From the NCBI GenBank assembly GCA_002424705.1, contig DIKW01000033.1:1-56287 (forward strand): DNA of 56,287 nucleotides. Reading direction: 5' to 3'. The translations under genes were made by a program, and so were the position numbers. The notes beneath the pieces were generated by a model, which was given only the letters and a program-made list of their open reading frames with translations, did no database searches and was not told the DNA's origin. Within the stretch, counting starts at the first letter, position 1. The number at the start of each line of letters is the position of its first letter. This document shows, piece after piece, positions 36,542-40,694 of the stretch. The DNA comes from Geobacter sp. UBA5608 (GTDB taxonomy: Bacteria > Desulfobacterota > Desulfuromonadia > Geobacterales > Pseudopelobacteraceae).

Positions 36542-38284
36542 CTAGATGCCTGTTGACGAACCGGCCGTCAAGCGGTGCAACTCGTCGCGCAGCTGCTTGA
36601 AATCAATCGGTTTGCTCAGATAGCCGTCAAACCCCTCCGCCAGCAGCCGTTCACGGTCGCCCTGCAGGGCATAGGCCGTGATGGCAATGATGGGAATATG
36701 TCCTCCCAGAACATGTTCCTGCTGACGGATGGCTGCAGTTGCCAGCCGTCCGTCCATCACGGGCATGTGGATATCCATCAGGATACAGTCCCACGCCTCT
36801 TCTTGCCATCGCTTCAGAACCTGGCGCCCATCCTCCACCACCAGTGTCTGATGTCCCATGCGCTGTAAAATGGTCTGCAGGGCGAAGGCGTTCATCTGAT
36901 TGTCTTCTGCAATCAACAGCTTCAAACCGTGTGTCTGGTGAGTCTCAACCGCGAGATCATCGCCGTTGGACGAGCAAAGCGTATGTTGATTGATCAAAAA
37001 CGGCAGTTCAACAGAGAAGCTGCTGCCCTTGCCCTCGGTGCTCTCAGCCCAGATGCAGCCGCCCATCAGCTCGGACAAACGCCGACAGATGGCCAGCCCC
37101 AGGCCGCTGCCACCGTACCGTCGTGTTGATGAGCTGTCTGCCTGTTCAAAGTAGCCGAAGATACGCTCCAGGGTATCTGGTGCCATGCCGATGCCGGTAT
37201 CGGTAATTTTCAGAAGGATGGTTACGCGCTGGTCCTGGTGCCCCAGCAGTGTTACGGCAATGGTGATGCTGCCCTGCTCCGTGAATTTAATGGCATTGCC
37301 CAGCAGGTTGAATATGATCTGTTTGAACCTCAGTACGTCTCCAACCAGTTCGTCAGGCAGCTCATCAGGCAGATGCAGCACGAGCTCAAGCCGCTTCTGA
37401 TTGATACGGGCAATTTGGTTGGCAATCACCTCCTGCATGGTACGTCGCAGGCTGAAGGTCGTTGATTCCAGATTCAGCTTGCCCGCCTCGATCTTGGACA
37501 GGTCAAGGATATCGTTCAACAGGGTCACCAGGGTGTTGCCCGACAGTTCGATATTGTCCAGGTACCCCTTCTGTTCCTGGGTCAGTTCAGTAAAACGAAG
37601 CAGCTGGGTCATGCCGATCACGCCGTTCATCGGGGTGCGAATCTCATGGCTCATGTTGGCCAGAAACTCACTCTTGGCCCGGTTGGCAGCCTCAGCCGCC
37701 AGGCAGGCCTGCTCGAGCTCGGCAGTCCGTTCGACCACCCGTTGCTCCAGTTCGCGGGCCTGCTGCTCAATCTGGCGGAAGCTGAGGGCATTCTTGAGGG
37801 CCAACGAGATCATGGGGGTCAACAGCTTGATGGTCTTGTCGATCTCTGCAATCCGGTCAAGGCCGGGGATATCGAACAGCAGTAGCAGGCCCACGAATTC
37901 CCCTGCGGCCTGGAGCGGGTAGCGGGCAAAGGAATGGATTGCAGTGCGTTGTAACGGTTTATACAACGGGTGCTCAGGCGATAACTGGTTGGTGTAATGG
38001 GGCACGTCGCCAGGGGTATGCTCAGGGCAGAACAGTTCAAGTTCTTCAAAGGAAAACAGCGTAGCTCTGCGTGCCGGACTTACATTCAACAGCTCATGGT
38101 GCGCCGGAGTTCCCTGGTGGGTCAGTATCATGATCGTCCGTGCGCCGGTCAGTTCTCGCAGATGTTCGGCCAGGGTCTGTCCCAGGGTGAGCGGGGAGGT
38201 AGAGATCAACAGTTCAGAGATGACCTCCAGTGCCATCAGCTGGGCTGCCGGCGGGAGCAGGCTCGGGGGATGTGCCGGTTTCAT
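36542..38284 (-). CDS. soluble hybrid histidine kinase (GAF-like, HisKA, HATPase, REC)
   Basis: No TM; GAF-like N-terminus (YPL...GEFVGLLLL); [31 protein letters not shown] with MDIHMP; ATGA overlap with the upstream gene. Confidence 0.92.
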
Positions 38285-38892
38285 GGGAAGTTTACCTCAA
38301 CCAAGGGGTTGGTTTGCGCCTCGTTCTGCGCAGCCAGCAGTTGTGAGAGCATGATCTCCAGATTGACAACCTCAACCTGCCAGGGCAGCCCGCTATAGGC
38401 AGAAAACGCAGCCATCTCTTGGGCTGGCACCGGGGCTAGCCCGGTATCCAGGTAGACCAGCACACTGCGGGTTTCCCGCATCAGGTCGTGTGCCACGGTT
38501 CGCGTCAGTCCGAGCTCGTGCTGCATGATCTCTTCCCAGCGCCCAGCCCATTCCGGCAGTACCAGGAAGGCCTCCTGGTGCATCAACTGCCGGTAGCGGT
38601 CACGTCCCAGCAGCAGCTGGGCGCAGTTGATCGCATTAACCCTGCCCACCCGGAAACGGCGCACCAGGTCCAGCATCCGGCTGCAGCAGTCGCCATAGGC
38701 CAGCACCAGGCAGCGCGGCGTGTCAGCATCCTTTTCCAGCAGTCTGGTCAGGGTCGCCTCCAGCGCGGGCGGGTCCATGTGCAGCATTGAATCAAGAAAC
38801 AGCAGTTTCCCCTTGATCAACCCCCGCTGGTGCAGCGCCTCCATTTCGGCACGCAGCACCCCGCAGCTGAGCCAGACGGTGTCAGTGGTCAT
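38281..38892 (-). CDS. DUF1638 family protein
   Basis: SCGVL..E, LH..P..L, LAYGDC, NC..LLLG pattern; 1-nt TAATG overlap with the upstream gene. Confidence 0.8.
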
Positions 38893-39923
38893 TAGGGGTA
38901 GCCCCTCTCGACGGCGTAATCGCGGCTGGCGGTAAGCAAGGTCTGCAGATTTTCGGGAGTGGTGGCCAGCGAGATGTCGGCACCGGCGTTGGAGAGGATG
39001 AAGTGGCCGCTTGGTGCGGCAGTTCGCAGACAGTCCATCGCCAAGGCGTACAGCTCCTCTGGCGATACGGCGGGAAAACAGAGATTATCCAGATTGCCGA
39101 TCAGGGTAAGCTCCGGTCCCGCCAGGGCCCGCGCCTGCGCCAGGTCGTCCTTTGAGCCAACCGCCACCGCCACCAGCCCGTCAAGGCCGGGGAGCAGATC
39201 AAGGACATGGTTGATGCTGCCGCCGGTTTGATGCAGCACCATGGGTCCCTGCACTTGTGCAAAGGTCGCCTGCAGATGCGGCAGAAACCGTTCGGCAAAC
39301 AGGCTGCGGGGGGCGATCTCGGCCGCTGCCATCCCCTCGGTCACCACCAGGCAGTCGGCACCGGCCTGCAGCAAGGCATTAGCCCAGGTCACGAAAAACC
39401 GACCGGTATGCTCCAGTAGTTTTTGGGCGGTATCCTGATCAAACAGGAGCGTCTCCAGCCACTGCTCCATGCCGATCAACAGCGAGGGGAGGATGCCGGG
39501 TCCCGGCACCACGCCGATCACCGGTACCTGCTCTTTGTAGTGCGCTGCCAAGCTGCGGGTTGACTCCAGGATGGCCGGCAACCGGCCGGTGCGCTGCGGA
39601 TCAGGTAGCGTCATCCCTAGTGCCGCCTCTGCAGAGGTGGTGGCCGGGCGTTTCATGTTGGGCGCCTGATCGTTGAACCAGGCTACCTGGCCGCCAAACG
39701 CCTCTGCTATGGCGCTGTAATTAAATTCGGTCATCACCAGGTCAAAGCCAAAGGCCTCCTGTACGGCCCGCTGGCCAGCCACCCAGGCCGCCGGGTCGCG
39801 GTACAGCGTCTTGAGTTCGACACCGGTCAGCTTACCTCCATAGGCGCCCAGCACGGCCAGAACCGGTACGCGATCCACCGGCTGTCCTCTCAGGGTGTTC
39901 ATCACGCGTTGGTAGGCGTTCAT
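38892..39923 (-). CDS. uroporphyrinogen decarboxylase/MtaA-CmuA methyltransferase-fold protein, Zn-binding Cys absent
   Basis: RV...L.GQPVDRVPV, AEAFG, GRLP.ILE, GNLD; LHQTG in place of LHxCG and AGAD in place of PGC. Confidence 0.82.
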   Translation of the reverse strand: MNAYQRVMNTLRGQPVDRVPVLAVLGAYGGKLTGVELKTLYRDPAAWVAGQRAVQEAFGFDLVMTEFNYSAIAEAFGGQVAWFNDQAPNMKRPATTSAEAALGMTLPDPQRTGRLPAILESTRSLAAHYKEQVPVIGVVPGPGILPSLLIGMEQWLETLLFDQDTAQKLLEHTGRFFVTWANALLQAGADCLVVTEGMAAAEIAPRSLFAERFLPHLQATFAQVQGPMVLHQTGGSINHVLDLLPGLDGLVAVAVGSKDDLAQARALAGPELTLIGNLDNLCFPAVSPEELYALAMDCLRTAAPSGHFILSNAGADISLATTPENLQTLLTASRDYAVERGYP

Positions 39924-40588
39924 GGTCTGCCTCCTGCCCGTGCGGCTGACTGCAGCCGCATGAACAGCTCATCTGCATTCACCGCGTTACGGGCAGTTCC
40001 ATCGCCCCCCACCTCTGCCACCAAATCAGGACGCCAGTTAAACACCGCGCCACCCACCGCCAGCTTCAGGCGCTGCTGCAGGCCGCGACTGTCAATCAGC
40101 TCCCGCAGTCTGCGGATGTTCAAGGCGGTGGTCTGCATCATTGCTGAGGCGCCGATCACGCTGGCATTGACGGCAAGTGCCGTGTCAATAAACTGCTCTG
40201 CCGGTACGTCATTGCCCAGGTCATGAACCTCCCAGCCGGCAGCGGCGAGAAACAGGGCAACGGTCCGTCGACCCAGGCTGTGAAAGTCATCTTCGATATT
40301 GCCAATCACTGCGACCCCCTTGGTGGGGTATTGGTCGGTTCGTTCGGGAATACAGCGCAGCATGGCGTCTTCGGCAATTTTAGCAGCCACAAACCCTTGA
40401 GCCAGCGAGAGGGTTTCCTGCTCCCATCTGCGTCCAAGACGGACCAGGGCCGGATCGAGAATGTCGGTGATGACCAGCATCGGTGCAATGCCCGATGCAA
40501 GCGCTTGGGAGATGATCTCCGCTGCAGCAGTGCGATCAGAGGAGATCATGGTGTCCAGCAGTCTATCTGTCCAATCCCGATGAACCAT
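39920..40588 (-). CDS. cobalamin-binding (corrinoid) protein, cap + B12 Rossmann domain
   Basis: Cap four-helix bundle; DFHSLG (DxHxxG), DLG.DVP, GASAM, VGGA; start at ATG 40588 with AGGAGGT RBS. Confidence 0.9.
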   Translation of the reverse strand: MVHRDWTDRLLDTMISSDRTAAAEIISQALASGIAPMLVITDILDPALVRLGRRWEQETLSLAQGFVAAKIAEDAMLRCIPERTDQYPTKGVAVIGNIEDDFHSLGRRTVALFLAAAGWEVHDLGNDVPAEQFIDTALAVNASVIGASAMMQTTALNIRRLRELIDSRGLQQRLKLAVGGAVFNWRPDLVAEVGGDGTARNAVNADELFMRLQSAARAGGRP

Positions 40589-40666
40589 GCAAAAACCTCC
40601 TGGCGATGCAGCCATAATGGTACGTCGGACTGCTCGTTCCGTATCGCTGCAGCATTCAAGGAACTG

Positions 40667-40694
40667 ATTGTACTGTAGACCAGCGTTGCGTCAA
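40667..40694 (-). promoter_or_regulatory. sigma70-type promoter for the corrinoid/kinase operon
   Basis: Minus strand TTGACG-16 bp-TACAAT. Confidence 0.55.

What the first reader, a model, noticed from the sequence alone, without database searches (positions are those of the whole stretch)
36542..40694. Candidate cobalamin-based sensory system: corrinoid protein + Zn-less methyltransferase homolog + DUF1638 + soluble hybrid kinase
Seen: four genes with overlapping stop/start codons (ATGA 39920-23, TAATG 38890-94, ATGA 38281-84) behind one sigma70-like promoter. The corrinoid protein keeps DxHxxG, the kinase has no TM segment, and DUF1638 keeps its Cys/His pattern. No methyl-THF/CoM acceptor enzyme, second methyltransferase or RamA/RACE ATP-dependent reactivase is in the locus. 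Known: corrinoid protein plus MtaA/CmuA-type enzymes normally form catabolic methyl-transfer chains, and DUF1638 co-occurs with B12 methyltransferase genes. Inference: the module has been repurposed as a multi-protein receptor in which the cobalt methylation/redox state or a bound methylated or halogenated compound controls the kinase. I know of no characterised system of this kind.
Basis: partly seen in the sequence, partly recalled or inferred. Interest (0 to 1): 0.85.

Follow-up and report, generated by a model that had tools for sequence, protein, structure and literature searches.

The report
B12 methyltransferase parts feeding sensor kinase
Three proteins that normally move methyl groups with vitamin B12 sit, with one dedicated docking domain, in front of many different signalling enzymes in bacteria of many phyla and in methanogens, so they likely form an undescribed receptor that turns B12 chemistry into a cellular signal.

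Summary
In detail: four coupled genes (corrinoid protein, MtaA-fold protein lacking two of three zinc ligands, DUF1638, soluble hybrid kinase) behind a promoter conserved in a relative. Of 80 loci found with the MtaA-like protein alone, 77 have the corrinoid gene upstream and 70 DUF1638 downstream; 61 of the 64 with enough DNA have a kinase or GGDEF next. Outputs are swapped: five kinase classes and GGDEF/EAL there, HD-GYP in one further locus. Corrinoid, barrel, DUF1638 and GAF distances track each other (r 0.94-0.96); the kinase core does not (0.36-0.39). Natural fusions join barrel to DUF1638 and DUF1638 to GAF-output. Zinc-motif-bearing relatives have no kinase nearby (0 of 9 loci). Five near-complete carrier genomes have no metabolic partner of the tested families. 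Best reading (0.78): a multi-protein cobamide receptor in which DUF1638, a probable Cys3His/Cys4 metal protein, relays the cobalt state to the GAF. Binding, ligand and signal are untested. Ten literature searches found no description. This scan has already reported the cassette on other genomes.

The parts
40667..40694 (-). sigma70-like promoter TTGACG-N16-TACAAT
   Evidence: 10 of 12 consensus; same boxes and spacing kept in G018 while neighbouring DNA differs
40596..40600 (-). ribosome-binding site GGAGG, 7 nt before ATG 40588, the probable true start of the corrinoid gene
   Evidence: read in sequence; closest homologs are 221-229 aa; DNA match to G018 begins at 40588
39920..40588 (-). corrinoid (cobamide-binding) protein, cap + Rossmann domain, intact DxHxxG, S and GG motifs; no CarH-type E-H
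   Evidence: PF02607, PF02310; D, G 68 of 68, H 67 of 68, E-H 0 of 68 aligned rows; dN/dS 0.11
38892..39923 (-). MtaA-fold (URO-D family) barrel; H231 kept, the two zinc cysteines replaced by T233 and A315
   Evidence: PF01208; alignment to MtaA 4ay7; model TM 0.88, rmsd 2.2 to 4ay7; dN/dS 0.26
38281..38892 (-). DUF1638 protein with C10, H38, C69, C90; probable metal (Fe-S or Zn) site and adaptor
   Evidence: PF07796; three Cys in 78 of 81 cassette homologs, Cys in place of the His loop in most of one subclade; dN/dS 0.19
37769..38248 (-). N-terminal GAF domain of the kinase, a cassette-associated subtype inherited with the three upstream genes
   Evidence: distance correlation 0.94-0.95 with the trio, 0.39 with its own kinase core; 12 of 15 copies in 61 genomes lie directly behind the trio
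36998..37678 (-). HisKA + HATPase_c transmitter core with intact H, N and G boxes; the exchangeable output
   Evidence: motifs read; output classes
36578..36916 (-). C-terminal receiver domain; no Hpt domain and no response regulator gene in the locus
36542..38284 (-). whole soluble hybrid histidine kinase gene (580 aa)

Best explanation
The corrinoid protein, the MtaA-fold barrel, DUF1638 and the kinase's GAF domain are inherited as one unit in front of exchangeable signalling outputs, and likely form a cytoplasmic multi-protein receptor that reads the chemical state of a protein-bound cobamide. Proposed steps: (1) the corrinoid protein holds a cobamide through its His (motif shown, loading inferred). 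(2) The barrel docks on it as MtaA does on MtaC; having lost both zinc cysteines it cannot activate a thiol acceptor, so the cobalt state is held rather than turned over (loss shown, consequence inferred). (3) Oxidation or alkylation of the cobalt, for example Co(I) to Co(II) or methyl-Co(III), changes the complex (inferred). (4) DUF1638, a Cys3His/Cys4 metal protein already tied genetically to B12 reactivation, reads or resets that state and docks on the GAF (fusions and co-inheritance shown, contact inferred). (5) The GAF and the following coiled coil switch the kinase (inferred). Within this reading I put cobalt redox/alkylation state at about 0.6, methyl relay onto DUF1638 at 0.15, cobamide occupancy at 0.15, light or other at 0.1.
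For: Query with the barrel alone: corrinoid gene directly upstream in 77 of 80 loci, DUF1638 directly downstream in 70 of 80, kinase or GGDEF next in 69 of 80 and in 61 of the 64 loci with at least 3.5 kb downstream (best 80 of 108 confirmed). In 61 related genomes all 31 strong barrel copies (27 genomes) adjoin a DUF1638 match. Outputs: five H-box classes, 7 unclassified kinases and 6 GGDEF; GGDEF-EAL and HD-GYP by Pfam. Pairwise distances over 50 loci: corrinoid/barrel/DUF1638/GAF r 0.94-0.96, each against the kinase core 0.36-0.39. A related GAF follows DUF1638 in the other two subclades (hhalign 90% and 96%). Fusions: DUF1638-output in 11 of 80 loci, barrel-linker-DUF1638 in one genome. 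Cassette barrels form one clade (IQ-TREE 99/99 on 32 of 63 rows; FastTree 0.993 on 99 of 112); none of 88 output-linked rows has the full H-x-C..C set. Control: 17 of 17 non-clade barrels keep H-x-C and 0 of 9 such loci hold a kinase, receiver or GGDEF hit. Five carrier genomes 98-100% complete hold only HemE and cassette barrels, only FolP- and MetH-sized pterin-binding frames, no MttB, no MtrH, but do hold CobS. All four genes under purifying selection. In G018 the DNA match covers exactly the four genes.
Against: All evidence is genomic; no biochemistry. Matching distances show joint inheritance of linked genes, not contact, and related genomes are not independent. DUF1638 is mostly not a signalling protein: only 4 to 6 of 93 family matches in a phylum-wide sample are cassette-type. 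DUF1638 is missing from some cassettes with room for it (L182, L184, L186, L195, L210), and the methanogen copies have lost most of its cysteines (L196, L199). 3 of 15 copies of the GAF subtype lie in another operon, two in genomes without the trio. L181 has corrinoid plus two clade barrels and no output. Nine of 27 carrier genomes, seven of them 92-99% complete, have no RACo match, so how Co(I) would be regenerated there is unexplained. H231 (62 of 82) and D/E316 (72 of 82) are kept, so a non-canonical metal site and real catalysis are not excluded. MtaB-type and other unlisted methyltransferase families were not searched.
Confidence: 0.78

Rival explanations
1. Ordinary or cryptic methyl-transfer enzyme set whose product or substrate is a small molecule sensed by the GAF; the kinase is co-located but does not touch the trio.
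For: GAF domains commonly bind small ligands (established knowledge). Kinases lie beside true corrinoid methyl-transfer genes in the mec cassette (10.1101/2021.08.30.458270, passages) and near mts genes in Methanosarcina (10.1101/2021.03.04.434021, passages). Some cassettes carry a full RamA/RACo gene (L202, L204, L210, L211, L083), which implies live cobalt chemistry. Conserved polar residues Q51, E74, N89, H231, D/E316 could form an active site.
Against: No acceptor or donor enzyme of the tested families in five near-complete carriers; zinc cysteines lost across the clade; DUF1638 is fused to the GAF-output in 11 of 80 loci, which a diffusible signal would not need.
Confidence: 0.13
2. Catabolic methyl-transfer operon with its own transcriptional regulator, like mec or mta operons.
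For: The three genes are homologs of catabolic parts; most DUF1638 genes in the phylum sample sit near RamA, pterin-binding or corrinoid genes or alone.
Against: Outputs are often not transcriptional (GGDEF, EAL, HD-GYP); no DNA-binding regulator in this locus; kinase core is exchanged while the GAF stays with the trio; metabolic barrels from the same order keep H-x-C and have no kinase nearby; carriers lack the second methyltransferase.
Confidence: 0.05
3. B12 photoreceptor of the CarH or photocobilin kind, spread over several proteins.
For: B12 domains control enzyme outputs in response to light (PMC10979010, abstract); a Trp is kept in the cap helix in 58 of 68 rows.
Against: The E-H pair of the CarH motif (motif recalled) is absent in 68 of 68 rows; the cap reads like MetH/MtaC (best NCBIfam match is methyltransferase cognate corrinoid protein). 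Many carriers by record title are sediment, groundwater or digester anaerobes.
Confidence: 0.04

Closest known systems
MtaC/MtaA-type corrinoid protein plus methylcobamide:CoM methyltransferase (MtaA, PDB 4ay7)
   Same: Same two folds; barrel model matches 4ay7 at TM 0.88, rmsd 2.2; corrinoid motif intact.
   Different: Both zinc cysteines lost; no substrate-side methyltransferase of the tested families; coupled to DUF1638 and a GAF-output; scores far below NCBIfam cut-offs.
mec (dichloromethane catabolism) cassette, MecABC
   Same: Histidine kinase beside a corrinoid protein and URO-D-family proteins (passages).
   Different: MecA is described as sensing through a PocR domain with regulator MecD, and the cassette has MecE, MecF and RACo for catabolism; 'DUF' does not occur in the preprint's main text. 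Here no such enzymes, and a DUF1638-GAF input.
DUF1638 + RamA-like B12 reactivation in the split methionine synthase of Phaeobacter/Ruegeria
   Same: DUF1638 works with a corrinoid protein; mutants need methionine (10.1101/192971, passages; PMC12478193, passages). Cys/His set is shared with non-cassette DUF1638 (66 of 68).
   Different: Metabolic, no kinase; the authors give no specific function for DUF1638.
CarH and photocobilin B12 photoreceptors
   Same: B12-binding domain controls an output (abstract).
   Different: Light input through one polypeptide; E-H motif absent here in 68 of 68; no methyltransferase barrel or DUF1638.
Methanosarcina MsmS/RdmS/MA4377 kinases beside mts corrinoid-methyltransferase fusions
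   Same: Kinases genetically linked to corrinoid-methyltransferase genes (passages).
   Different: There the kinases regulate mts transcription and sense by heme or CHASE domains; the corrinoid protein is described as target, not receptor.
Regulatory hydrogenase HoxBC/HupUV with soluble kinase HoxJ/HupT (recalled, no call)
   Same: Works like it: an enzyme-derived cofactor complex serves as accessory sensor of a soluble kinase through its N-terminal domain.
   Different: Unrelated proteins and cofactor (NiFe, H2); an analogy, not membership.

Membership tests
MtaA/MtbA methylcobamide:CoM methyltransferase | URO-D-type barrel fold | tested here: met
   PF01208 E 1e-52; TM 0.88 to 4ay7
MtaA/MtbA methylcobamide:CoM methyltransferase | zinc site H-x-C ... 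C (ligand roles recalled) | tested here: not met
   H231/T233/A315 against 4ay7; 0 of 88 output-linked rows complete
MtaA/MtbA methylcobamide:CoM methyltransferase | family score over curated cut-off | tested here: not met
   TIGR01463 124.9 against 235.4; NF040654 114 against 400
MtaA/MtbA methylcobamide:CoM methyltransferase | methyl transfer from methylcobamide to a thiol | not testable with these tools
   needs enzyme assay
Uroporphyrinogen decarboxylase HemE | hemE family score and N-terminal RQAGR motif (motif recalled) | tested here: not met
   TIGR01464 38.7 against 303; motif absent in the sequence; a second, distant URO-D gene lies on C17 and carriers have a separate full-score HemE
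Methyltransferase cognate corrinoid protein | cap domain plus DxHxxG..S..GG Rossmann domain | tested here: met
Methyltransferase cognate corrinoid protein | cobamide actually bound | not testable with these tools
   needs reconstitution; CobS present in 5 of 5 carriers tested
Catabolic corrinoid methyl-transfer system (MT1 + corrinoid + MT2 + activator) | second methyltransferase in locus or genome | tested here: not met
   none of URO-D, pterin-binding, MttB or MtrH type beyond HemE, FolP and MetH in 5 of 5 near-complete carriers; MtaB type not searched
Catabolic corrinoid methyl-transfer system (MT1 + corrinoid + MT2 + activator) | RamA/RACo activator | tested here: inconclusive
   absent from this locus; 18 of 27 carriers and 17 of 34 non-carriers have one; inside five cassettes
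mec cassette | MecE/MecF/MecD genes and PocR-type kinase input | tested here: not met
   no MtrH family in 5 carriers; input is GAF; no regulator gene in locus. Mec sequences themselves were not compared
CarH-type B12 photoreceptor | W-x9-E-H in the cap domain (recalled) | tested here: not met
   W 58 of 68, E-H 0 of 68
Hybrid histidine kinase | HisKA His, HATPase N/G boxes, receiver Asp | tested here: met
Fe-S or zinc protein (DUF1638) | clustered Cys/His ligands holding a metal | tested here: inconclusive
   C10/H38/C69/C90 conserved, Cys in place of the His loop in most of one subclade; all four lie at strand ends or helix starts of the model; distances could not be measured and the metal is not testable here

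The most novel reading that the evidence does not exclude
The cassette is a covalent methyl-relay receptor: the barrel strips a methyl or haloalkyl group from an environmental compound onto Co(I), and the zinc-thiolate function lost from the barrel has moved to DUF1638, whose own Cys cluster takes the methyl group (as in the Ada protein, recalled) and so switches the kinase. B12 methyl transfer would then be used as a signalling relay upstream of phosphorylation and c-di-GMP, across bacteria and methanogens.
Probability: 0.13. Interest if true: 0.93.

Novelty: categorically new. Interest (0 to 1): 0.76.

Why it matters
The B12 sensors I know of or found in print respond to light. A receptor made from methyltransferase parts would be a new class of sensory input, spread over about 14 phylum-level bacterial groups and methanogens by record titles, and common in Geobacterales (27 of 61 genomes). 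It may be how anaerobes notice oxidants, methylated compounds or alkyl halides. It would also give DUF1638 a testable role, and offers a modular input that nature has already plugged into kinases, diguanylate cyclases and phosphodiesterases. Cultured carriers exist (Geomonas limicola, Geomonas azotofigens, Desulfopila aestuarii).

Tried and rejected
Four-chain complex prediction with DUF1638 as partner gave no answer (score 0.00); it is not used for or against binding. No RNA holder was listed for the stretch. DUF1638 model (pLDDT 95): no solved relative by sequence, and only generic two-domain alpha/beta matches by fold (Foldseek TM at most 0.46; best Z 7.8); this shows neither a function nor a new fold. 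Atlas gave only DUF1638 clusters and a DUF1638-GGDEF cluster. No match in viral contigs or plasmids. No cobalamin riboswitch: Rfam found only a tRNA in the window. GC content of the cassette (0.56-0.63) equals its flanks, so no sign of recent foreign origin. The idea that the genome's RACo gene serves the cassette was dropped: in 10 of 10 carriers checked it is present where MetH is short or lacks PF02965 (G000, G040, G043, G046) and absent where MetH is full length (G004, G012, G018, G025, G037, G047). HemE, CarH-type and mec membership rejected (see tests). A too-diverse alignment could not be used for the genome scan. Literature: ten searches found no paper describing the cassette; the library lacks most subscription papers, and supplements were not read.
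Full report
OBSERVATION. The four minus-strand ORFs and their overlapping stop/start codons are as stated. Pfam names them cap + B12-binding, URO-D, DUF1638, and HisKA-HATPase-receiver with a weak N-terminal GAF; the Atlas confirms the GAF. 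The corrinoid gene probably starts at 40588, behind a GGAGG site. The promoter-like site is not significant by count (4 sites against 1.8 +/- 1.5), but both boxes and the spacing recur in relative G018, whose DNA matches the window over the four genes (36569-40588, 83%) and not over the flanks. All four genes are under purifying selection against G018 (dN/dS 0.11-0.26). The window is contig C26 of a 53% complete genome whose relatives carry Geobacterales titles. The rest of the window holds housekeeping, chemotaxis and other signalling genes, with no methyltransferase partner among the ORFs scanned.

NEIGHBOURHOOD. To avoid circular counting I searched genomes with the barrel only (alignment A3, 8 rows). 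Of 108 confirmed stretches the best 80 were kept. With local profiles: corrinoid gene directly upstream 77 of 80; DUF1638 directly downstream 70 of 80; first downstream output a kinase in 63 and a GGDEF in 6; 61 of the 64 loci with at least 3.5 kb downstream have one. Of the 11 without output, eight end within 3.5 kb (several inside a GAF protein); the other three are L181 (no output), L182 (a short GAF protein, then a chemoreceptor gene) and L203 (outside the clade). Record titles span about 14 bacterial phylum-level groups and Methanosarcinaceae; the grouping is my reading of the titles. In 61 related genomes the barrel scores fall in two groups, 31 copies at 353 bits or more and 11 at 233 or less; all 31 adjoin a DUF1638 match.

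SWAPPED OUTPUTS. H-box classes among the 80 loci: 26 HD[FL]NN, 14 HE[IL]RTP, 7 HDL-x-x-P, 7 HisKA_2, 2 HE-x-N-x-P type, 7 other, and 6 GGDEF (class names are my recalled labels). Pfam on 30 chosen proteins adds GGDEF-EAL (L158), HD-GYP (L072) and variable PAS/GAF inserts. Over the 50 loci that hold all five parts, pairwise distances of corrinoid, barrel, DUF1638 and GAF correlate at 0.94-0.96, each against the kinase core at 0.36-0.39. The exchange point therefore lies inside the output gene, after the GAF. A related GAF follows DUF1638 in the two other subclades (hhalign 90% and 96%). This GAF subtype has 357 clusters at E up to 1e-30, and it is N-terminal in nearly all of the best 150, on proteins of 169-2000 aa. 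In 61 genomes 12 of 15 copies lie directly behind the trio; three belong to another operon, two of them in genomes without the trio. DUF1638 is fused to the output in 11 of 80 loci, and to the barrel through a Pro/Ala linker in one Opitutaceae genome. These correlations show joint inheritance; contact is inferred from them and from the fusions.

ANATOMY. Corrinoid protein: D and G of DxHxxG 68 of 68, H 67 of 68, the later S and GG 68 of 68; CarH-type E-H 0 of 68. Barrel: model pLDDT 97.5, closest to MtaA 4ay7 (TM 0.88). In the alignment to 4ay7, H-I-C and P-G-C correspond to H231-Q-T233 and A-G-A315 (that these are the zinc ligands is recalled). None of 88 output-linked barrels has the full set; three variants exist (HH-x-GG..AD as here, YYC-G, and HL-ASG..DxHGE), so an alternative metal site remains possible. 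Cassette barrels form one clade (99/99 in IQ-TREE on 63 rows, thinned from 130; 0.993 in FastTree on 112 rows); the outgroup sample is small and query-biased. DUF1638: C10, C69, C90 in 78 of 81 cassette homologs and 66 of 68 others; H38 in 65 of those 78, with a Cys in the same loop in most of the third subclade, the pattern expected of metal ligands. The kinase has no membrane segment and no Hpt or regulator beside it, so its target is unknown.

CONTROLS AND METABOLIC RIVAL. Nine loci around the weaker-scoring barrels of the same order hold 17 barrels, all with H-x-C, four of the loci with RamA, and none with a kinase, receiver or GGDEF hit. In a phylum-wide sample, PF07796 matched 68 of 251 genomes; of the 93 matches outside this genome, fetched as 91 regions, four are complete cassettes, two more are cut by contig ends, and the rest are metabolic or lone. 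DUF1638 is thus an ancient corrinoid accessory that this clade has co-opted. Five carriers 98-100% complete have only HemE and cassette barrels, FolP- and MetH-sized pterin-binding frames, no MttB, no MtrH, and CobS in all five. RACo occurs in 18 of 27 carriers and 17 of 34 others and tracks short MetH in 10 of 10 carriers checked. A full Fer2-RACo gene does sit inside five cassettes (L202, L204, L210, L211, L083); three of these use barrels outside the main clade. That argues the cobalt is chemically live in at least some versions, and leaves open how it is reset in the nine carriers without RACo.

MECHANISM. I commit to a cytoplasmic receptor (0.78): cobamide on the corrinoid protein, barrel as docking partner and possible ligand gate that cannot finish thiol methylation, DUF1638 as metal-bearing reader or reset, GAF and coiled coil as switch. 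Shown: gene order, motifs, motif loss, joint inheritance, fusions, swapped outputs, missing partners. Inferred: cofactor loading, complex formation, the sensed state, direction of control. Rivals: enzyme making or removing a GAF ligand (0.13), catabolic operon with regulator (0.05), photoreceptor (0.04).

LITERATURE. Seen as passages: 10.1101/192971 (DUF1638 mutants need methionine, distribution follows RamA, no specific function proposed), PMC12478193, 10.1101/2021.08.30.458270 and PMC9768040 (mec cassette), 10.1101/2021.03.04.434021 and PMC11619418 (Methanosarcina kinases). Seen as abstract: PMC10979010 (a term search in it found nothing). Ten searches found no description of this cassette; subscription papers are mostly missing and supplements were not read, so a mention could have been missed. 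HoxJ/HupT, Ada and the CarH motif are recalled. Earlier notes of this scan describe the same cassette on other genomes; none concerned this genome or sequence. They are not counted as evidence.

VERDICT. Real, conserved and probably a new kind of sensory input; untested biochemically. Interest 0.76.

Noticed in passing
G000:C38:4875-6188 and G000:C55:3760-6145: A RACo-like gene without an N-terminal Fe-S match lies between selD-like and purH-like genes; MetH is short and read in two frames. In 10 of 10 genomes checked RACo goes with short MetH and is missing with full-length MetH.
   Followed up: partly
L202, L204, L210, L207, L211, L083: Cassette versions with a full Fer2-RACo gene inside; the barrels of L202, L204, L207 and L210 keep one Cys and lie outside the main clade, suggesting a second or older form.
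   Followed up: partly
L230:5320-6096, L231:5257-6450, L173:881-1633: The cassette-type GAF on short coiled-coil proteins with no catalytic domain found, in L230 and L231 inside a membrane signalling operon and in genomes without the trio.
   Followed up: partly
L182:7051-11115: Desulfoluna cassette without DUF1638: corrinoid, barrel, a 275-aa GAF protein ending in a CxxC..CxxC tail, then a chemoreceptor gene.
   Followed up: no
L143, L205, L181, L196: Tandem cassettes or duplicated corrinoid/barrel genes, in L143 of two different subclades chained together.
   Followed up: no
L196, L199: Methanosarcinaceae DUF1638-kinase fusions have lost most of the conserved cysteines.
   Followed up: no
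L040:4836-7772 (also L045, L058): DUF1638 fused to a hydantoinase/oxoprolinase domain (about 950 aa), in L040 and L045 between a URO-D-like gene and a corrinoid gene.
   Followed up: no
window 35705-36433 (-): Secreted-looking 242-aa protein with two internal repeats, each with a Cys pair, and no useful Pfam match, directly downstream of the kinase; not conserved beside the cassette in G018.
   Followed up: no
window 2638-4194 (-), 15931-17919 (-), 19278-27050 (+): Chemoreceptor with a C-terminal hemerythrin domain; nitrate/nitrite-sensing chemoreceptor; multiheme cytochrome c552 gene followed by a hybrid kinase and a PAS-GGDEF-EAL gene.
   Followed up: no
window 42082-42155 (-): tRNA gene, the only Rfam match in the window.
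   Followed up: no
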